Below are positions 2,587-33,076 of a stretch of 48,100 nucleotides of DNA, piece after piece. The stretch covers positions 1-48,100 of the forward strand of contig JACROR010000011.1 of the NCBI GenBank assembly GCA_016214345.1. Reading direction: 5' to 3'. Positions within the stretch are counted from its first letter, which is position 1. Each line of letters starts with the position of its first letter. Source of the stretch: Candidatus Niyogibacteria bacterium (lineage in GTDB: Bacteria > Patescibacteriota > Minisyncoccia > JACROR01). Both the position numbers and the translations under genes were made by a program. The notes under the pieces are model-generated. The model had not been told where the DNA came from. It worked only from the letters and a program-made list of their open reading frames with translations, and did not search any database.

Positions 2587-3459
2587 ATGGCAACCCAACC
2601 TAAAGAAAAATATAAAACCATAACGCTGGATGAAAAGAGTTATCCGGCGCTGCTTCGTGAAATTCCCGACCCGCCTGAAACCCTCTACATGCTCGGCAAT
2701 TTCCATGATTGGCATAAACCCGCGATAGCGATCGTAGGCACCCGAAAAGCCACCTCTTACGGCCTGCGCGCGGCGCGCGCCCTCGGATGCGAATTGGCAG
2801 CCGCCGGCATAACCGTGGTAAGCGGACTCGCCCTGGGTATTGACGCGGAAGCGCACCGAGGCGCCTTGGAAGCGAACGGCAACACCGTCGCCGTTTTAGG
2901 GTCGGGCATAAACATGATCTATCCGGCGACCAATCGTCCACTCGCGGAAAAAATAATAGAGCAAGGCGGCGCTGTAATATCGGAATTTTCCCCAGATCTT
3001 CCGCCGGAAAAATGGACCTTCCCGCAAAGAAACCGCATAATCGCCGGATTATCAAACGTAACGCTCGTAATTGAGGCCCCGGAAAAAAGCGGCGCGCTTA
3101 TTACCGCTTACCTCGCGCTGGAATACAACCGCGAAGTCGCCGCCCTGCCCGGAGAAATAACTTCCCTCAATTCACAAGGCACGAACAAGCTCATAAAACT
3201 GGGAGCGGCTATAATAAGAAGTGCGGACGATGTGCTGGAACTCTTGGGATTAAACGCTCCTAATCCGAAAACTTTATTTGACAAATTGGACAAAATAGAA
3301 AATGTTATACTGCAATGCCTAAACAAACCGCAGAACAAAGATGAAATGCTTGACCTAACGCAATTGCCTGCAGACATATTAAATCAAAAATTGTCTTCGC
3401 TTGAATTAAAAGGCGCGATTAAAAATAACGGAGGATTATATGAAATTAGTAATAGTTGA
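2587..3459 (+). CDS. dprA: DNA-processing protein DprA
   Basis: YPALLREIPDPP, AIVGTRKATSYG, VSGLALGID, FPQRNRIIAGLS, EAPEKSGALITA. Confidence 0.97.
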   Translation: MATQPKEKYKTITLDEKSYPALLREIPDPPETLYMLGNFHDWHKPAIAIVGTRKATSYGLRAARALGCELAAAGITVVSGLALGIDAEAHRGALEANGNTVAVLGSGINMIYPATNRPLAEKIIEQGGAVISEFSPDLPPEKWTFPQRNRIIAGLSNVTLVIEAPEKSGALITAYLALEYNREVAALPGEITSLNSQGTNKLIKLGAAIIRSADDVLELLGLNAPNPKTLFDKLDKIENVILQCLNKPQNKDEMLDLTQLPADILNQKLSSLELKGAIKNNGGLYEISNS

Positions 3460-7362: not shown

Positions 7363-8335
7363 CTAAATAGTGAACCGGTCTAGCGCGTCTTTTTCCACGC
7401 CTGATAAAGTATTGCTATCAAATACTTTTTCTTGCTCCGCATTGCCCACAATATCGTCTAACGCGGAAGCCAGCTGAACGGGAACATCGGACATATGCGA
7501 TTCCACGGGCGGCATATCGTTGCCGTCTAGCAAGGCTTCTTTCGGCGCGTCTTCCGAAGATACCGCTTCCGTTTCCGGCATAATATCCGTGTTGTCCTCC
7601 ATCCGGTCTTTGTCCACTTTGGCCAAGAAATTTTTCTTCCAGCACCCGCGTATTCTGATCAGGCAAACCGTCTTGCTTTCGCGCCCGCTCGTAAGCAATG
7701 CGCCTTGCCGCATGCTCCGCGTCGCGCACCGACAATTTTTTATAAACTATATCTTTAAAAAGTATTTTTTGCGCTTCCGGCTTGTCAGAGAGCATCAAAA
7801 GCGGACGAGTGTGGCCTTCGTTTATGGAACCGTCAACCAAAGCCTGTTTGATTTCTTCCGGTAGCACAAGAAGCCGCATGGTGTTGGCCACAAATTCGCG
7901 GCTTTTGCCGATCTTCGCGGCAATCTCTCTTTGCTTCATTCCGAAAGTATCCGCCATTTGTTTGAAAGCAATGGCGCGCTCAATTGGTCCCAAATCTTCT
8001 CTCTGCACATTTTCCACCAACGCCAATTCCAATTTAACTTTCTCCGCCGGCTCTGCGCGGATAATTACGGGCACTTGCAAGAGGCCCGCCAATTTAGAGG
8101 CGCGAAGCCGTCGCTCGCCTGCGATAAGCTCATAATTAACCGCAGTGCCATTTGGGACTTCGTGCTCACAACGCACCACCACCAATGGCTGTAAAACTCC
8201 ATACTGGCGGATGGATTCGGAGAGCTCACGCAATCGGCTTTCGTCAAATTCATGCCTCGGCTGAAAAGGATTGGGCTTTATTTTTTCGGTTTCTACCCAA
8301 AAAATGCTATTTTGAATTTGATTATTTTGATTCAT
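7363..8335 (-). pseudogene. parB: ParB/Spo0J partition protein with apparent frameshift/deletion near 7630
   Basis: PNPFQPRHEF, GVLQPLVV, LIAGERRLRA, ENVQREDL and HTH. After RVLEEK the frame becomes non-ParB-like, while an alternative frame gives an acidic tail ending LDRFTI at 7363. ORF 7418-8335 could still encode a truncated protein. Confidence 0.7.
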
Positions 8336-8473
8336 CTATGTGTATGTGTATGAGAAATTATACTGCGGGGTGTTGTCTAAAATCTAACAAAAAAGTATAA
8401 TGGTTGGCAAGGGGAAAATTTATGCCGGAGCGCCCGTCTTGGGCGGGCAAAGCATTTTGAAAAATTAAAATTT

Positions 8474-8560
8474 GCCGGAGTGGCGGAATTGGCATACGCG
8501 CACGACTCAAAATCGTGTTCCCGTAAGGGATTAAGGGTTCAACTCCCTTCTCCGGCACCA
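8474..8560 (+). tRNA. tRNA-Leu(CAA)
   Basis: GCCGGAG/CTCCGGC acceptor stem, CACGA-CTCAAAA-TCGTG anticodon arm, long variable arm, GGTTCAACTCC T-arm, encoded CCA. Confidence 0.97.
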
Positions 8561-8611
8561 CAAGAGTACTTCAGAAAATATAGTCGCAAAGCTCCTTATT
8601 TTCTTGGTCGC

Positions 8612-8754
8612 ATTTGTTCCCTGTTTGTCTAAACTCCCGTTTTGTCAAAGAGCGTAGCGATTTGTAACAAAACGCAATGCAGGGAGGCCGAAGGCCGAGT
8701 CGTAAGCAAGGCGATTGGTTACAAACAGCAATCCTGTAAGGGTTCGGAACGAAT
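8612..8754 (+). repeat. Multi-branched hairpin element in the tRNA spacer
   Basis: Nested helices 8612-20/8746-54, 8621-28/8721-28, 8633-36/8697-8700 and 8638-45/8667-74. 8633-8680 matches the reverse complement of 47953-48000 at 39/48 nt. Confidence 0.7.
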
Positions 8755-8818
8755 CTAATACCCCCTCATCTTTCAATGGATAGGATGCAAGCTTCCGAAG
8801 CTTGCGATGTAGGCCCGT

Positions 8819-8913
8819 CCCCACACTAATCCTCTTGTCGTTCAATGGACAGGACACCTCCCTCCGAAGGAGGAGATGCAGGTTCGATTCCTGCCGAGAG
8901 GATTAGTGTGGGG
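8819..8913. mobile_element. Inverted-repeat-bounded cassette carrying the inner tRNA
   Basis: CCCCACACTAAT (8819-8830) / ATTAGTGTGGGG (8902-8913); same repeat as at 32780/33076. Mobility is inferred. Confidence 0.6.
8831..8902 (+). tRNA. Inner intact tRNA-Arg(CCG)
   Basis: CCTCTTG/CGAGAGG acceptor, GTTC-AATGGACA-GGAC, CCTCC-CTCCGAA-GGAGG, GCAGG-TTCGATT-CCTGC, discriminator A. No encoded CCA. Confidence 0.93.
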
Positions 8914-8981
8914 GTGAGAATTCCTACTGAGGGGACAACAAAATAGGTTATAGTTTCTAGGTTATAACTTACGAGTGACAA

Positions 8982-9506
8982 TCATTTTGTAGCTCGGCGG
9001 TTTTTCATTACATAAAAAATAAGAATTCCTGAAAGAATGCCTACAACCGCCCCGCCTAAAATATCCGCCGGCCAATGAATACCGCCAACCACTCGGGATA
9101 TGGAAATTAAAACCGCGCCTGCAAAAAATACGCTGCCCCAAACGCGATCGTACAAAAACACGACCATAGCCAAAGCGAAGAAAAACGCCGCGTGCCCGGA
9201 AGGAAAAGCTGAACCAGTACTATGATCAATCAATCGGTAAACGTCCACTACCTCAAACGGCCGCGGTTTGGCATAAAAAAATCGGATGATCTCCGTGACA
9301 ATAAAGCGCGAAAATAAAACCGCGATCAAAGAATCTATCAACATCCGAAAACCGCGCTGATTGCGATAAAAAATGGCGAGCGCCACAAGTCCACCTACCA
9401 GCCAATACTCCAAATAGCTCGCCAAAAAAATAAAAAATGTATCCAGCCAATCAAATCTCCCAGCGAAACTATTTAAATAATTAAATAAAGTAAGATCCAT
9501 AATCAA
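8982..9506 (-). CDS. PAP2 family phosphatase (BcrC-like undecaprenyl-diphosphatase)
   Basis: KPRPF, FPSGHA and SRVVGGIHWPADI motifs; hydrophobic. Confidence 0.92.
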   Translation of the reverse strand: MIMDLTLFNYLNSFAGRFDWLDTFFIFLASYLEYWLVGGLVALAIFYRNQRGFRMLIDSLIAVLFSRFIVTEIIRFFYAKPRPFEVVDVYRLIDHSTGSAFPSGHAAFFFALAMVVFLYDRVWGSVFFAGAVLISISRVVGGIHWPADILGGAVVGILSGILIFYVMKNRRATK

Positions 9507-12767: not shown

Positions 12768-12866
12768 ACCCCTCACCTTTTAATTATTTTTTTAATATCT
12801 GCAGATTTTAAATTATTCGCGCTAATTTTTATCCTAATGCAATTTAATTTGCCAAAGGTGAGGGGT
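12768..12866. repeat. CCCCWCAC-family 13-bp inverted repeat enclosing a 73-nt AT-rich spacer
   Basis: ACCCCTCACCTTT (12768-80) / AAAGGTGAGGGGT (12854-66). An adjacent hairpin at 12728-12764 has GAGCGAAGCGA in its loop. Confidence 0.75.
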
Positions 12867-13812: not shown

Positions 13813-16218
13813 TTATATAACAATATTCACCAACCTGCCACGAACCACAATCACCTTTTTAGGATCCTTGCCCTCTAGTAGTTCTTTGATACGCGGCTGT
13901 TTCAAGGCAAATTCCCGCAAACCGTCCTCCCCCAAATCAGCGTCAACCTCTGCCTTGTCGCGCACCTTACCATTTATTTGAATAACAAGCTCATAAACTT
14001 CTTCTTTAACTAGTTCGGGATTATATTCCGGCCATTTTTCCGAATGTATGGAAGTTTTATGGCCAAGTTGCTCCCAAATTTCTTCGGCCATGTGCGGCGC
14101 GAACGGCGCCAATATTTTTATGAATAATTCGTAAACTCCGCGAGACAATTCTTCTTGTTCGTCCATAGCGTTGGTGAATATCATCAACTGCGATATGGCC
14201 GTATTGAACCTAAAACCCTCAATATCCTCGGAAACTTTTTTGATAGTTTGATGCGATAATTTTTCCATATTTCCGCCGGACTGAGAATCAATCAAATTAT
14301 TTTGCGCTCTCCACGCCTTTTCCAAAAATCTCCTGGCGCCGATAATACTCTCCGAACTCCAAGCCACCGTCTGGTCAAAGGGACCCATGAACATCTCATA
14401 AACGCGAAGCGTGTCGGCGCCATAAGCCTCCACGATATCATCAGGATTAACCACATTGCCGTAACGCTTGCTCATTTTTTTGCCGTCTTTCGCGGTGATC
14501 AATCCCACGTTCTGCAGCCGCGAAAACGGCTCCGGATGATCAACCACGCCCAGATCATACAAAAACTTGTGCCAAAAACGCGCGTAGATCAGATGGCGCG
14601 TGGCGTGTTCCGCTCCTCCCACGTAAACATCCACGGGCGACCAATATTTTTCTTTTTTCTTATCAACCAATTCCTTGCCATTTTGCGGATCAATATATCG
14701 CAAATAATACCAACTGGAACCGGCCCACTGGGGCATGGTGTTGGTTTCCCTCTTGCCTTTCCCACTACATTTGGGACATTTCACGTTTACCCACTCGGCA
14801 ATATTGGCAAGCGGAGATTCGCCCGTACCCATCGGCTCGTAAAACTTCACTTCCGGCAATTTAACCGGCAGATCGCTCTCCGGCACCGCTACCACTCCGC
14901 ATTTTTCACAATGGATAAGCGGGATGGGCTCGCCCCAATAACGCTGGCGCGAAAATACCCAATCGCGCAATTTGTATTTAACGGTTGTTTTTCCTCCCAC
15001 AAATTCAGTTATGGATTTTTTAGCTTTTTCCGCATCCATACCGTTAAATTTGCCCGAACTGACCAATTTACCATCTCCGATGTATGCGTCTTCCAACACG
15101 GGACATTTCGGTTCCGGATAAAACTGGCAGATTACTTGTTTAATCGGCAATTTAAATTTTTTGGCAAAAACCCAGTCACGCTCATCATGCGCCGGCACCG
15201 CCATAACCGCTCCGGTCCCATAATGCGCCAAAACGTAATCGGCTATAAAAATGGGTAGCTCCTCTCCATTGGCGGGATTGATCGCTTTCACGCCTTGCAG
15301 CTTCACTCCGGTTTTTTCTTTGTCTGCAGCCGTCCGTTCTATTTCAGGCTTATTTCTTGAAACCTCTATGTATTCCGCGGCTTTTTTCCAATTGTTTATT
15401 TCAGGCCGCAGCGCTTTCACCAATTCATGTTCCGGCGCGAGCGCCACGTAAGTCGCGCCGAAAAGCGTATCCGCTCTCGTGGTGAAAACTTTTATCTTAA
15501 AGTCCGTTCCTTTGATCGTGAAATCGATCTCCGCGCCCTCGGAACGGCCTATCCAATTTCTTTGCGATTCCTTGATGGATGCCGGCCAATTCAAACCTTC
15601 CAAGTCTTGGAGCAATCTATCGGCATAATCCGTGATCCGCAAAACCCACTGCCGTAACGGCCGTTTCTCAACGATACTACCGCATCTCTCACACTTGCCA
15701 CCCTCCAGATCTTCATTGGCCAACCCGGTTTTGCAAGACGGACACCAATTGATCGGCTCATGCGATTCATAAGCCAAACCACGCTCGAACAATTTCAAAA
15801 ATATCCACTGCGTCCACCGATAATATTCCGGATTCGTGGTATTGATCTCCCTATCCCAATCGTAATTAAATCCCAGCAATGATAATTGTTCCTTAAAGCG
15901 CGCGATGTTTTTTTTCACCGCTACGCGCGGATGGAGTTTATTTTTGATCGCGAAATTTTCCGCAGGAAGCCCGAAAGCATCCCAACCCATAGGATGCAAA
16001 ACGGCAAAACCGTTCATCCGCTTGAAGCGCGAGTAAATATCGCTCGCGAAATATCCTTTGGGATGCCCCACATGCAGGCCATCTCCGGAGGGATACGGGA
16101 ACATGTCCAAAACATAACTTTTAGGGCCCTTCAAAGTATCCGATATTTTATACAAACCGCTCTTTTCCCACGCCTCGCGCCATTTTTTTTCTATTTTTTT
16201 ATGATTATATTCAGCCAT
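13813..16218 (-). CDS. leuS: Leucine--tRNA ligase
   Basis: MFPYPSGDGLHVGH, MGWDAFGLPAEN, DWVFSRQRYWGEPIP, KMSKR. Confidence 0.99.
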   Translation of the reverse strand: MAEYNHKKIEKKWREAWEKSGLYKISDTLKGPKSYVLDMFPYPSGDGLHVGHPKGYFASDIYSRFKRMNGFAVLHPMGWDAFGLPAENFAIKNKLHPRVAVKKNIARFKEQLSLLGFNYDWDREINTTNPEYYRWTQWIFLKLFERGLAYESHEPINWCPSCKTGLANEDLEGGKCERCGSIVEKRPLRQWVLRITDYADRLLQDLEGLNWPASIKESQRNWIGRSEGAEIDFTIKGTDFKIKVFTTRADTLFGATYVALAPEHELVKALRPEINNWKKAAEYIEVSRNKPEIERTAADKEKTGVKLQGVKAINPANGEELPIFIADYVLAHYGTGAVMAVPAHDERDWVFAKKFKLPIKQVICQFYPEPKCPVLEDAYIGDGKLVSSGKFNGMDAEKAKKSITEFVGGKTTVKYKLRDWVFSRQRYWGEPIPLIHCEKCGVVAVPESDLPVKLPEVKFYEPMGTGESPLANIAEWVNVKCPKCSGKGKRETNTMPQWAGSSWYYLRYIDPQNGKELVDKKKEKYWSPVDVYVGGAEHATRHLIYARFWHKFLYDLGVVDHPEPFSRLQNVGLITAKDGKKMSKRYGNVVNPDDIVEAYGADTLRVYEMFMGPFDQTVAWSSESIIGARRFLEKAWRAQNNLIDSQSGGNMEKLSHQTIKKVSEDIEGFRFNTAISQLMIFTNAMDEQEELSRGVYELFIKILAPFAPHMAEEIWEQLGHKTSIHSEKWPEYNPELVKEEVYELVIQINGKVRDKAEVDADLGEDGLREFALKQPRIKELLEGKDPKKVIVVRGRLVNIVI

Positions 16219-16333: not shown

Positions 16334-16984
16334 ATGAGAAAATTTACTCCAGAAAAAGAAAATTTTTACCACATCGTAAATCGCGGAACCGAAAAACGAC
16401 GAATATTCCTGAATCACAAAGATTATGAAAGATTTATTGCCAATATGGTCGCCTTTAATACCGAAAACGATCCCCGACTTAATATTTCACGATATAATCT
16501 TAATAAAATTTTTCAGCACATCCCCACCAATCGGCTGGTTAAAATACATGCTTTCTGCCTACTACCGAACCACTTTCATTTATTATTAGAACAGTTGGCT
16601 GAAAACGGGATCTCTCGATTTATGCACAGATTAGAGATGGGCTATGCCAGATATTTTAATATTTTGCATAACAGAAACGGCAATCTTTTCCAGGGCGCAT
16701 ATAAATTGGTGCCAATGGAAGATGAGGCGCATCAATTATATTTACCTATTTATATCCACCTTAATCCGCTTGACTTGTTGCCGACTGAAAAACATTGGCG
16801 AGAAAATGGAATTAAAGATCACCACCAAGCCATGGCTTTTCTTAAAAAATATCCGTGGTCAAGTTTTACAGAATACTACGGAACTGGCAACCTCCCCTTC
16901 ATAAGCAAAGAATTACTAAATGATCTTTATAAAAATTCTGACGATTGGGATCGTGCAATAATGTCTTGGTCCTCCAAAAAGTAA
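16334..16984 (+). CDS. REP-associated tyrosine transposase (RAYT, HUH/Y1 family)
   Basis: YHIVNRG, AFCLLPNHFHLLL (HUH), GNLFQG, YIHLNP, YPWSS. AT-richer than its flanks. Confidence 0.92.
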   Translation: MRKFTPEKENFYHIVNRGTEKRRIFLNHKDYERFIANMVAFNTENDPRLNISRYNLNKIFQHIPTNRLVKIHAFCLLPNHFHLLLEQLAENGISRFMHRLEMGYARYFNILHNRNGNLFQGAYKLVPMEDEAHQLYLPIYIHLNPLDLLPTEKHWRENGIKDHHQAMAFLKKYPWSSFTEYYGTGNLPFISKELLNDLYKNSDDWDRAIMSWSSKK

Positions 16985-32779: not shown

Positions 32780-33076
32780 CCCCCACACTAATTAAGGATT
32801 TGAATCATGTTCTATGTTTATATATTACAAAGTTTGAAAGATAAACAATTATACATCGGCTACTCCGAAGATTTGAAACGCAGAATACAAGAACATGATT
32901 CAGGCAAAAATAAATCAACAAAATACCGAAGACCATTTAGACTGGTTTATTACGAGGCGTATCAATCGAAAATGGATGCGCAAAACAGAGAAACCAATTT
33001 AAAGCTTTTTGGTAGGGCGTTGGGAGGATTAAAGCGGAGAATTAAAATCAGCTTAAATCCTTAATTAGTGTGGGGG
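32780..33076. mobile_element. 22-bp inverted-repeat-bounded cassette carrying a GIY-YIG gene
   Basis: CCCCCACACTAATTAAGGATTT (32780-32801) / AAATCCTTAATTAGTGTGGGGG (33055-33076), a perfect inverted repeat. Mobility is inferred. Confidence 0.7.
32807..33064 (+). CDS. Stand-alone GIY-YIG nuclease
   Basis: FYVYILQS...LYIGYSEDLKRRIQEH..G...STKYRRP..LVYYE......A..RE..LK. Confidence 0.93.
   Translation: MFYVYILQSLKDKQLYIGYSEDLKRRIQEHDSGKNKSTKYRRPFRLVYYEAYQSKMDAQNRETNLKLFGRALGGLKRRIKISLNP

What the first reader, a model, noticed from the sequence alone, without database searches (positions are those of the whole stretch)
8762..8938. A tRNA nested inside a tRNA: intact tRNA-Arg(CCG) in the T-loop of another tRNA-Arg(CCG)
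Seen: the outer gene has a full acceptor stem (8762-68/8928-34), D-arm, CCG anticodon arm and T-stem (GTAGG/CCTAC). Its T-loop holds about 100 nt made of CCCCACACTAAT, a complete and sequence-distinct tRNA-Arg(CCG) (8831-8902), and ATTAGTGTGGGG. The repeat extends the inner acceptor stem into one ~19-bp helix. The two tRNAs have different stem sequences, so this is not a simple tandem duplication. Established: bacterial tRNA introns are mostly group I introns in the anticodon loop, and integrative elements usually restore a tRNA with a partial end rather than an internal whole copy. Inference, two options: (a) a hairpin-bounded element inserted into the host tRNA while carrying a same-anticodon replacement, or (b) an excisable intron releases two tRNAs from one precursor. 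The boundary is ambiguous: rejoining gives T-loop TGAGAATT or CCCGATT.
Basis: partly seen in the sequence, partly recalled or inferred. Interest (0 to 1): 0.95.

Follow-up and report, generated by a model that had tools for sequence, protein, structure and literature searches.

The report
Replacement tRNA inserted inside old tRNA
A small hairpin-ended insertion element carrying a complete arginine tRNA gene sits in the T-loop of the genome's original arginine tRNA gene of the same anticodon, so the inner gene appears to have replaced the outer one, which is now decaying.

Summary
Window 8762-8935 is a cloverleaf-shaped tRNA-Arg(CCG) gene interrupted between T-loop positions 57 and 58. The insert holds an intact tRNA-Arg(CCG) (8831-8902) between 12-bp inverted ends (8819-8830 and 8902-8913). 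An independent re-assembly of the probable source run gives the same sequence.

It is not unique. The same genome nests tRNA-Arg(TCT) inside tRNA-Arg(TCT). Hairpin-flanked tRNA-Gln(TTG) and tRNA-Ser(GGA) also sit beside remnants of older genes of the same anticodon.

A same-genus genome has uninterrupted genes at both Arg loci. Its Arg(TCT) gene matches the outer copy, so the outer genes are ancestral and the hairpin-tRNA units were inserted. The outer copies have lost conserved positions (G10, U33, T54-T55).

The 12-bp ends mark a family of hairpin-bounded insertions. [quoted passage not shown]

Best reading: a palindromic, IVS- or MITE-like element with a tRNA cargo replaced the resident tRNA. 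The "intron that yields two tRNAs" reading is not supported. There is no EndA gene, no bulge-helix-bulge motif and no ribozyme match.

The insertion mechanism, the RNA processing and the reason cargo and target share an anticodon are all inferred. I found no published precedent.

The parts
8474..8560 (+). tRNA-Leu(CAA), the upstream neighbour and a synteny anchor.
   Evidence: ARAGORN and Rfam at 57.1 bits. It matches the G001 gene at 83 of 85 positions. G001 has the same Leu(CAA)-Arg(CCG) order.
8620..8745 (+). One and a half copies of a dispersed palindromic repeat (core GCGATTGGTTACAAA) that fill the Leu-Arg spacer. G001 has no counterpart of this stretch.
   Evidence: A regex scan found 14 core sites in G000 with at most 2 mismatches, at window 8657 and 8711 among others. 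The alignment with G001 has a gap here.
8762..8817 (+). 5' part of the outer (ancestral) tRNA-Arg(CCG): acceptor 5' strand, D arm, anticodon arm, T-stem 5' strand and T-loop positions 54-57 (now CCCG).
   Evidence: Read directly from the sequence. Acceptor and T stem match the uninterrupted G001 Arg(CCG). Positions 8763-8813 are 90% identical to G000 tRNA-Arg(GCG).
8819..8830 (+). Left inverted end, CCCCACACTAAT, of the inserted element.
   Evidence: The same 12 nt end hairpin-bounded elements in 16S, 23S, upstream of tmRNA and elsewhere. They also flank G001 tRNA-Leu(TAG).
8831..8902 (+). Inner, intact tRNA-Arg(CCG). It is the only Arg(CCG) gene called in the genome.
   Evidence: Rfam RF00005 at 61.8 bits and ARAGORN. 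It matches the G001 Arg(CCG) at 60 of 72 positions and is 89% identical to a tRNA of another family, G024.
8902..8913 (+). Right inverted end, ATTAGTGTGGGG. Its first A is the inner tRNA's discriminator base.
8914..8919 (+). Six extra bases, GTGAGA, between the right end and the outer T-loop remainder. GGGGTGAGAATTCCTAC is shared with the second nested locus and with metagenome locus L161.
   Evidence: These bases are absent from the empty G001 allele.
8920..8935 (+). 3' part of the outer tRNA-Arg(CCG): T-loop positions 58-60, T-stem 3' strand, acceptor 3' strand and discriminator A.
12768..12866 (.). An intergenic 99-nt hairpin-bounded element of the related family B, with ends ACCCCTCACC...GGTGAGGGGT.
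   Evidence: Inverted-repeat scan and its sequence.
32781..33075 (+). A 295-nt member of the same end family (CCCCACACTAAT...ATTAGTGTGGGG). It holds an 85-aa GIY-YIG nuclease ORF (32807-33064) and abuts the tmRNA 5' end (33073).
   Evidence: Pfam GIY-YIG E 7.9e-17. G003 has only a 13-nt gap at this site.

Best explanation
The outer 'tRNA' (8762-8817 plus 8920-8935) is the genome's original tRNA-Arg(CCG) gene. About 102 nt (8818-8919) were inserted between T-loop positions 57 and 58.

The insert is a member of a family of hairpin-bounded (palindromic) insertion elements whose ends are CCCCACACTAAT...ATTAGTGTGGGG. [quoted passage not shown] Some members carry a small GIY-YIG nuclease gene.

In this copy the interior is a complete, foreign-looking tRNA-Arg(CCG). 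Its acceptor stem stacks on the terminal helix. That inner gene is now the working CGG decoder, and the interrupted outer gene is a decaying relic.

Shown by tool results: the insertion, the family membership, the empty allele and the decay of the outer gene.

Inferred:
(i) The long duplex of 19-22 bp is cut from the transcript in the way rRNA intervening sequences are cut by RNase III. RNase P and 3' trimming then mature the inner tRNA, and the outer pieces are discarded.
(ii) Cargo and target share an anticodon because every tRNA gene here is single-copy. An insertion into a tRNA gene would then survive only if it brought a replacement. Alternatively, homology between cargo and target guided the event.
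(iii) The mobilising enzyme is unknown. The element-borne GIY-YIG nuclease is the leading candidate.
For: 1. Empty alleles. G001 (same genus) has Leu(CAA)-Arg(CCG) and Phe-Arg(TCT)-Val with uninterrupted Arg genes. The break points fall exactly between TTCG and ATT of the T loop.

2. The outer gene is the ortholog for TCT. The rejoined outer TCT matches G001 Arg(TCT) at 69 of 73 positions, the inner at only 56 of 72. The CCG outer shares its acceptor stem and T stem with G001 Arg(CCG).

3. The pattern recurs.
- Of 46 G000 tRNAs, 4 have leader-trailer helices of 12-18 bp: Arg TCT, Arg CCG, Ser GGA and Gln TTG. The other 42 have 10 bp or fewer.
- All four lie in or beside remnants of an older gene of the same anticodon.
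- G001 has the same arrangement at Leu(TAG), with ends identical to the window's, and at Gln(CTG).

4. Family membership. Six elements of 95-295 nt in G000 share the 12-bp ends or close variants of them (allowed up to 2 mismatches), while their interiors are unrelated. Two lie inside the 16S and 23S genes. G011, from another family, has three more.

5. Decay of the outer genes. CCG has T10 opposite T25 and T54T55 changed to CC. TCT has G10 to A, U33 to C and an extra C. Default ARAGORN calls the rejoined TCT outer for 0 of 130 boundary combinations.

6. Turnover of tRNA genes in the genus. Of 34 isoacceptors compared between G000 and G001, 19 are at least 90% identical and 15 are 63-88% identical. 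The low group includes every hairpin-flanked one.

7. The enzymes the model needs are encoded. RNase III is present. All four GIY-YIG genes lie within 120 nt of a tRNA or tmRNA gene.

8. The assembly is supported by a second assembler.
Against: - No RNA data exist, so neither processing nor the non-function of the outer gene is shown.
- For the CCG locus, identity does not separate ortholog from newcomer. The outer matches G001 at 59 of 72 positions and the inner at 60 of 72. The outer's anticodon stem equals that of G000 Arg(GCG), which needs an extra gene-conversion step.
- No consistent target-site duplication is seen. Two G011 copies have 4-nt flanking repeats, but the G000 copies do not.
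- The extra GTGAGA at the right junction is unexplained.
- The small GIY-YIG proteins have no DNA-binding domain, and no transposase function is known for them.
- How a tRNA comes to lie exactly between the ends is not explained, nor why the same ends carry Arg in G000 and Leu in G001.
- The outer stems are still perfectly paired. That fits a recent event but also fits residual constraint.
- The insertion is polarised on one congener plus the decay marks. No deeper outgroup was obtained.
Confidence: 0.7

Rival explanations
1. True intron. The hairpin-tRNA unit is cut out of the outer pre-tRNA by a protein endonuclease and the outer halves are re-ligated, for example by RtcB. One precursor would then give two functional tRNA-Arg(CCG) molecules. 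The same machinery would splice the family's copies out of 16S and 23S rRNA.
For: RtcB is encoded in this 691-kb genome. Members of the same end family sit inside the single-copy 16S and 23S genes and must be removed or tolerated at the RNA level. The helix extends beyond the DNA repeat through G.U pairs on the sense strand. The outer stems are intact, and default ARAGORN accepts the rejoined CCG outer for 7 of 209 boundary combinations.
Against: - No EndA, no bulge-helix-bulge motif in the sequence and no ribozyme match at E<=10.
- Rejoining leaves a T loop without T54 and T55 (CCG) or with an extra base (TCT).
- G10 is lost in both outers and U33 in one.
- The rejoined TCT outer is called for 0 of 130 boundary combinations at default thresholds.
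- RNase III products (5'-P and 3'-OH; recalled) are not RtcB substrates.
- The G.U excess over A.C is not significant under a strand-symmetric count: 6 against 2, p 0.29.
Confidence: 0.07
2. Nuclease-driven allele replacement (intron-less homing) rather than transposition. A GIY-YIG or other nuclease cuts the resident tDNA. Repair then copies a divergent, cut-resistant tRNA allele with its hairpin flanks from incoming DNA of another strain, sometimes imprecisely, which leaves pieces of the old gene.
For: - All 4 GIY-YIG genes lie within 120 nt of tRNA or tmRNA genes. One follows G001's hairpin-flanked Gln(CTG).
- Identity between G000 and G001 tRNAs is bimodal.
- New copies always sit at the syntenic site of the same isoacceptor.
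- Many tRNAs have partial copies nearby.
- Precedent: T4 SegB, a GIY-YIG homing nuclease in a tRNA cluster (PMC2330249; search listing and the start of its abstract seen).
Against: - The two Arg loci are clean insertions at one T-loop position with no loss of outer bases. That looks like cut-and-paste rather than recombination at homologous points.
- No nuclease gene lies next to either Arg locus.
- The ends are shared with elements in non-tRNA sites.
- These short GIY-YIG proteins are not shown to be site-specific.
Confidence: 0.13
3. Relic of a classical tRNA-targeting integrative element (tyrosine integrase). The hairpin and GGGGTGAG would be an attachment-site arm left behind after most of the element was deleted.
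For: - Metagenome locus L161 has an intact outer-type tRNA-Arg(TCT), then 49 nt holding an empty hairpin plus TGAG, then a 16-nt repeat of the tRNA 3' end starting at A58. That is an att-like duplication.
- Several G000 tRNAs have 18-43-nt 3'-end repeats 60-130 nt downstream.
- T loops are known integrase targets (recalled).
Against: - The nested loci have no duplicated 3' end.
- No integrase lies nearby. The genome's single tyrosine recombinase is elsewhere and there is no serine recombinase.
- Two loci would need the same near-total internal deletion.
- The ends belong to a family of 95-295-nt elements.
Confidence: 0.04
4. Assembly chimera of two tRNA-Arg alleles or strains.
For: The genome is a metagenome-assembled draft of 32 contigs. 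tRNA genes are repeats of a sort. Only one run holds the sequence.
Against: - An independent assembler gives an identical 6710-nt contig across both junctions at depth about 91.
- The junctions carry unique sequence.
- The same architecture occurs at other loci, in G001, and partly in an unrelated metagenome contig.
Confidence: 0.02

Closest known systems
Bacterial rRNA intervening sequences (IVSs), cut out by RNase III without re-ligation. The short, uncharacterised insertions in CPR rRNA genes belong here (PMC11270868; outline and found passages read).
   Same: About 100-300 nt with complementary ends forming a long helix. Placed at the tip of a hairpin loop of a stable RNA gene. Sporadic distribution. 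Some copies carry a small ORF. Members with identical ends lie in this genome's 16S and 23S genes, and RNase III is encoded.
   Different: The host here is a tRNA T loop, and the interior is a complete tRNA gene. The host RNA probably cannot work in two pieces, so the element supplies the function it destroys. The passages I saw of that paper do not mention tRNA: the term search found 0 occurrences of 'tRNA' in the main text. Its supplements could not be seen.
Bacterial MITEs and palindromic elements such as Neisseria Correia elements (cut by RNase III when transcribed) and Rickettsia palindromic elements. These are recalled; no paper on them was read.
   Same: Short, non-coding, terminal inverted repeats, many copies, inserted in or next to genes, folding as hairpins in RNA.
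   Different: Only the outer 8-12 bp are conserved between copies. The interiors are unrelated and the inner stems differ yet stay complementary. No consistent target duplication is seen. The larger copies carry a GIY-YIG nuclease, not a transposase. I know of no tRNA cargo in those families.
Phage T4 SegB, a free-standing GIY-YIG homing nuclease in a tRNA gene cluster (PMC2330249; search listing and the start of its abstract seen).
   Same: GIY-YIG nuclease genes sit next to tRNA genes, with preferential replacement of a relative's tRNA region.
   Different: SegB is a larger, site-specific enzyme acting in phage co-infection, with no hairpin ends and no nesting. The proteins here are 83-129-aa catalytic domains of unknown specificity.
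Archaeal non-canonical tRNA introns (bulge-helix-bulge, any position including the T loop) and split or permuted tRNAs. Recalled.
   Same: An insertion in a tRNA outside the anticodon loop. The hairpin at the exon-intron junction stacks on tRNA helices.
   Different: This is a bacterium, as shown by its tmRNA. It has no EndA and no 3-nt bulges. The outer gene is decayed and the insert is itself a tRNA.
Group I introns in bacterial tRNA anticodon loops (review PMC3984707; search listing only).
   Same: An intervening sequence in a bacterial tRNA gene.
   Different: Wrong loop. About 100 nt is too short for a ribozyme core, and Rfam gives no intron match at E<=10.
tRNA-targeting integrative elements (tyrosine integrases with att sites in the T or anticodon loop). 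Recalled.
   Same: The break is in the T loop. The related locus L161 shows a duplicated tRNA 3' end.
   Different: The nested loci have no duplicated 3' end and no integrase. The unit is about 100 nt and restores function with a whole gene rather than a partial end.

Membership tests
Group I or group II intron in a tRNA gene | A ribozyme core recognisable by covariance models, with insertion in the anticodon loop. | tested here: not met
   Rfam scan of 8300-9100 at E<=10 lists only tRNA and chance hits. The insert is about 102 nt and lies in the T loop.
Archaeal-type protein-spliced (BHB) intron | A bulge-helix-bulge motif at the junctions and a splicing endonuclease (EndA) in the genome. | tested here: not met
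   The helix is continuous, with no 3-nt bulges. PF01974 finds nothing in G000 (92.6% complete), while the control rings in 4 archaea. RtcB is present.
rRNA-type intervening sequence (IVS) | Complementary ends forming a helix of 20 bp or more that replaces or extends a hairpin loop of a stable RNA. | tested here: met
   19 Watson-Crick pairs plus 3 further pairs in the T loop. Copies with the same ends lie inside 16S and 23S.
rRNA-type intervening sequence (IVS) | Excision from the transcript by RNase III without re-ligation. | not testable with these tools
   An RNase III gene is present. No RNA run was listed.
MITE or TIR transposon | Terminal inverted repeats shared by multiple dispersed copies. 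| tested here: met
   6 copies in G000, 1 in G001 and 3 in G011 share CCCCACACTAA.../...TTAGTGTGGGG.
MITE or TIR transposon | A target-site duplication of fixed length, and an autonomous partner encoding a transposase. | tested here: inconclusive
   4-nt flanking repeats occur in 2 of 3 G011 copies and in none clearly in G000. The two ORF-bearing copies encode GIY-YIG nucleases, not a known transposase.
REP or REPIN elements mobilised by RAYT (Y1) transposases | The hairpins match the ones that flank the RAYT gene. | tested here: not met
   Six Y1_Tnp-like genes are present, but each is flanked by its own, different hairpins.
tRNA-integrating element (tyrosine or serine recombinase) | A direct repeat of the tRNA 3' part at the far end, and a recombinase gene in the element. 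| tested here: not met
   There is no repeat of the 3' end at the nested loci. The neighbours are housekeeping genes. The one tyrosine recombinase lies elsewhere and there is no resolvase.
Functional tRNA (outer gene) | Conserved G10, U33 and T54-T55-C56, and detection by tRNA finders. | tested here: not met
   Neither ARAGORN nor Rfam detects it as it stands. After in-silico rejoining, default ARAGORN calls it for 7 of 209 (CCG) and 0 of 130 (TCT) boundary combinations. The lost positions are listed.
Functional tRNA (inner gene) | A full cloverleaf, a score above the Rfam gathering threshold, and being the sole gene for its anticodon. | tested here: met
   61.8 bits against a threshold of 29. 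It is the only Arg(CCG) among the 46 tRNAs called.

The most novel reading that the evidence does not exclude
The YCCCNCAC...GTGNGGGR hairpins are a new class of selfish 'stable-RNA parasites' in CPR bacteria. They insert into rRNA, tRNA and tmRNA genes and are removed at the RNA level because their terminal helix mimics a tRNA acceptor stem. Family-B ends, CCCCTCA/TGAGGGG, are identical to the Arg(CCG) acceptor stem. The tRNA-processing enzymes or RNase III would then excise them, possibly followed by re-ligation. The tRNA-bearing members would be mobile replacement cassettes that knock out a resident single-copy tRNA and make the cell depend on the cargo. That would drive the rapid isoacceptor turnover seen in this genus (15 of 34 isoacceptors below 90% identity between congeners). 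It might also give escape from tRNA-targeting toxins.
Probability: 0.15. Interest if true: 0.95.

Novelty: new variant of a known kind. Interest (0 to 1): 0.78.

Why it matters
I could find no report of a bacterial tRNA gene interrupted in its T loop by an element whose payload is a working copy of the same isoacceptor. The searches were made, which gave no hit on nested tRNAs. The CPR rRNA-insertion paper read does not mention tRNA in its main text.

The finding ties together three loose threads in CPR biology:
- the unexplained short insertions in their rRNA genes;
- the many small GIY-YIG and Y1 nuclease genes in tiny genomes;
- an unexpectedly high turnover of tRNA genes between close relatives.

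It also has a practical consequence for annotation. tRNA finders report only the inner gene, and the relics go unseen. Synteny-based orthology of tRNAs in these genomes can therefore be wrong.

If the hairpins are processed at the RNA level, they offer a simple natural system for releasing one RNA from inside another.

Tried and rejected
- **Search for the right-junction motif elsewhere.** GGGGTGAGAATTCC occurs in only 1 of 401 class genomes, G000 itself. None had a tRNA within 200 nt, so they are chance hits and that scan was poorly chosen. A 19-mer over metagenome contigs gave 4 loci, of which only L161 was relevant. Viral contigs gave 0 hits for the 17-mer, 61 irrelevant hits for the 14-mer, and 0 hits for ends plus a tRNA-sized gap.
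- **A BLAST of the whole nested stretch in 40 relatives** matched only tRNA-sized pieces. No match spanned a junction.
- **Pattern for the Gln/Ser-type ends in 151 class genomes.** 9 genomes had hits. Only G000 (2) and G001 (1) had a tRNA inside. The reversed control pattern gave 5 hits. The order holds only 4 genomes.
- **RNA-level selection on the helices.** G.U against A.C is 29 to 8 on the sense strand with a G.U-tolerant helix definition. The antisense control gives 22 to 16, and a strand-symmetric definition gives 6 to 2 (p 0.29). I treat this as inconclusive.
- **RAYT/REP link.** Rejected, because the hairpins flanking the six Y1 genes are different.
- **Integrase or serine recombinase next to the locus.** None.
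- **Expression.** No RNA holder was listed among the sequencing runs. Runs X2, X18 and X19 carried only tRNA-like pieces from other organisms.
- **Paper supplements** were closed. Those of PMC11270868 (insertion-site tables) might list similar short insertions, and I could not see them.
- **Literature.** Searches gave nothing relevant. Searches gave the papers cited.
- **Not done.** No structure or complex prediction was needed. No protein database search was run.
Full report
**The observation.** The window holds tRNA-Leu(CAA) at 8474-8560 and, 200 nt downstream, a stretch (8762-8935) that reads as a tRNA-Arg(CCG) cloverleaf with a foreign body in its T loop.
- The outer acceptor stem (CCCCTCA/TGAGGGG), anticodon arm and T stem (GTAGG/CCTAC) pair perfectly. 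The D stem has one T-T mismatch.
- The foreign body is CCCCACACTAAT, a complete tRNA-Arg(CCG) (8831-8902), then ATTAGTGTGGGG and six more bases (GTGAGA).
- ARAGORN and Rfam see only the inner gene.
- The whole stretch folds into the nested shape far better than shuffles do: z -5.7, 0 of 200.
- A Logan contig of run X1 reproduces 8494-9300 without a difference at depth about 91. X1 is probably the source sample, so this rules out an assembler quirk but is not an independent sample.

**The case is not isolated.** The genome (G000, 691 kb, 32 contigs, 46 tRNAs, one per anticodon apart from two Met(CAT) genes) has a second case at C8:18559-18737.
- There an Arg(TCT)-like cloverleaf is interrupted at the same T-loop position. 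The insert is CCCCCCACTTTAT, an intact tRNA-Arg(TCT), ATAAAGTGGGGGG and TGAGA.
- I measured leader-trailer pairing for all 46 tRNAs. Four stand out: Arg TCT 18 bp, Arg CCG 14, Ser GGA 13 and Gln TTG 12. The rest have 10 bp or fewer.
- Gln(TTG) lies between the 5' part (through the D arm) and the T arm plus acceptor 3' strand of an older tRNA-Gln.
- Ser(GGA) lies downstream of the first 12 nt of the G001-type Ser(GGA).

**Polarity: what was inserted into what.** G001, the only other genome of the genus, has the same gene order at both Arg loci but uninterrupted genes.
- Its Arg(TCT) matches the rejoined G000 outer gene at 69 of 73 positions. The differences include G10 to A and U33 to C in G000. 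It matches the inner gene at only 56 of 72.
- Its Arg(CCG) has the outer gene's acceptor stem and T arm with a normal TTCGATT loop. The insert falls exactly between TTCG and ATT.
- For CCG the overall identities do not discriminate (outer 59 of 72, inner 60 of 72). The outer anticodon stem equals that of G000 Arg(GCG), with 63 of 72 positions shared overall. I read this as a later conversion, but that step is inferred.
- Rejoining the outer genes in silico gives a default ARAGORN call for 7 of 209 boundary pairs (CCG) and 0 of 130 (TCT).
- Together with the lost conserved bases, this marks the outer genes as relics.

**What the insert is.** The 12-nt ends are not private to this locus.
Each is a long hairpin with a different interior and a different, but complementary, inner stem.
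- One lies inside the 16S gene and one inside the 23S gene. One is 40 nt from 5S and one is upstream of tRNA-Met.
- One (window 32781-33075) is directly upstream of tmRNA and encodes an 85-aa GIY-YIG nuclease.
- At that site G003 has a 13-nt gap, G001 a different 128-nt hairpin and G000 the 295-nt element.
- G001 carries the same ends around a tRNA-Leu(TAG), downstream of the first about 13 nt of the G000-type Leu(TAG).
- G011, from another family, has three copies. Two have 4-nt flanking repeats and one abuts a tRNA 5' end. In all, 3 of 61 genomes searched have the family.
- A wider inverted-repeat scan shows related families with ends YCCCNCAC...GTGNGGGR. Family B ((G)CCCCTCACCCAG...) has at least 14 copies: two in 16S, one in 23S, others abutting the 5' ends of tRNA-Phe and tRNA-Ala, and one in the window at 12768-12866. 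One family-B copy carries a second GIY-YIG gene.
- The ends of Gln(TTG) and Ser(GGA) (TCCCGCA...) resemble a non-tRNA copy on C22.

**Context.**
- All four GIY-YIG hits in G000 lie within 120 nt of a tRNA or tmRNA gene. By my own rough arithmetic, about 2% of the genome lies that close to such a gene.
- The genome also has six Y1 (RAYT-like) genes, each with its own hairpins.
- It carries a REP-like palindrome at 15 or more sites and a further dispersed palindromic repeat with 14 core sites found.
- Many tRNAs have partial copies nearby.
- Between G000 and G001, 19 of 34 comparable isoacceptors are at least 90% identical and 15 are 63-88% identical. The low group includes every hairpin-flanked one. 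Flanking protein genes are 72-88% identical at the DNA level. tRNA genes in this genus are evidently replaced often.

**Mechanism.**
- Shown: an insertion of a family member at T-loop position 57/58, a tRNA as its interior, and decay of the host gene.
- Inferred: in the transcript, the 12-bp terminal helix plus the inner acceptor stem (19 Watson-Crick pairs, 22 with the G.U extension) is an RNase III-type substrate, as in rRNA intervening sequences. The enzyme is encoded. The inner pre-tRNA is then finished by RNase P and 3' trimming.
- Published work on CPR rRNA genes describes short uncharacterised insertions as "probably" such IVSs and does not mention tRNA (PMC11270868).
- The shared anticodon is most simply explained by selection. 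With single-copy tRNA genes, an insertion into a tRNA gene would survive only if the cargo replaces it. Homology-guided or nuclease-driven replacement, as with T4 SegB (PMC2330249), is the main alternative.
- I cannot say how a tRNA comes to lie exactly between the ends, why the same ends carry Arg in one genome and Leu in the other, or what the extra GTGAGA is.
- GGGGTGAGAATTCCTAC is shared by both Arg loci and by metagenome locus L161. In L161 an intact outer-type Arg(TCT) is followed by an empty hairpin and a repeat of the tRNA 3' end.

**Against the intron reading.**
- No ribozyme match.
- No EndA and no bulge-helix-bulge motif.
- Decayed outer genes.
- No significant excess of G.U over A.C in the helices when counted symmetrically.
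- RtcB is present, and the rRNA copies must be dealt with somehow, so I keep a small probability for this reading.

**Verdict.** The finding is real and, as far as my searches reach, unreported. It is a new variant of known kinds (IVS- or MITE-like palindromic insertions, tRNA gene replacement) rather than a new kind of intron.

Noticed in passing
G000:C8:18559-18737 (L003 1423-1601): A second nested pair. An intact tRNA-Arg(TCT) with ends CCCCCCACTTTAT/ATAAAGTGGGGGG sits in the T loop of a decayed tRNA-Arg(TCT). G001 has the empty allele.
   Followed up: yes
G000:C1:1930-2211 and G000:C26:21350-21650: tRNA-Gln(TTG) and tRNA-Ser(GGA) are flanked by 12-13-bp inverted ends (TCCCGCA...) followed by GAGG. 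Each lies beside pieces of an older gene of the same anticodon.
   Followed up: yes
window 32781-33075: A 295-nt hairpin-bounded element with an 85-aa GIY-YIG ORF abuts the tmRNA 5' end. The last GGGG of its right end is the tmRNA's own first four bases. Relatives have other hairpins or nothing at this site.
   Followed up: yes
G000:C6:1671-3509 (16S rRNA gene): The 16S gene is 1839 nt against a 1533-position model. It holds three hairpin-bounded insertions (1854-1958, 2216-2345, 3297-3431). The 23S gene holds at least two (C21:13159-13292, 14682-14826). I did not test whether the rRNA is fragmented or spliced.
   Followed up: partly
window 16334-16984 and five other G000 sites: Six Y1_Tnp (RAYT-like) genes in a 691-kb genome, each flanked by its own pair of palindromes. 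That is unusually many for so small a genome.
   Followed up: partly
window 8620-8745 and about 47962 (minus strand); 14 core sites found in G000: A dispersed palindromic repeat with the core GCGATTGGTTACAAA, often near tRNA genes. One copy lies inside the broken outer tRNA-Gln.
   Followed up: partly
G000, 15 or more sites (e.g. C8:18489, C10:28048, C17:12407): A REP-like perfect palindrome, GCCTGCCTGCCGGCAGGCAGGC, scattered through intergenic regions and next to tRNAs.
   Followed up: no
G000 tRNAs Asp, Leu(GAG), Ser(TGA), Leu(CAG), Tyr, Ile(TAT), Val(TAC), Met, Cys: Partial copies of the tRNA lie 50-130 nt away: 18-43-nt 3' ends, or 20-26-nt 5' ends. Several of the intervening inserts contain an inverted copy of the same T-arm segment plus a small hairpin. 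G001 has the same insert type after Leu(CAA).
   Followed up: partly
G000 against G001, all tRNAs: Identity by anticodon is bimodal: 19 of 34 at 90% or more, 15 of 34 at 63-88%. This suggests frequent replacement of tRNA genes within one genus.
   Followed up: partly
Family-B element ends, e.g. window 12768-12866 and C8:18273-18408: The first seven base pairs of family-B hairpins (CCCCTCA/TGAGGGG) are identical to the acceptor stem of the ancestral tRNA-Arg(CCG). I could not tell whether this is common origin, mimicry or chance.
   Followed up: no
G000:C8:98396-99682: A full-length RtcB RNA ligase gene (477-aa ORF) in a genome with no EndA. Its substrate here is unknown.
   Followed up: no
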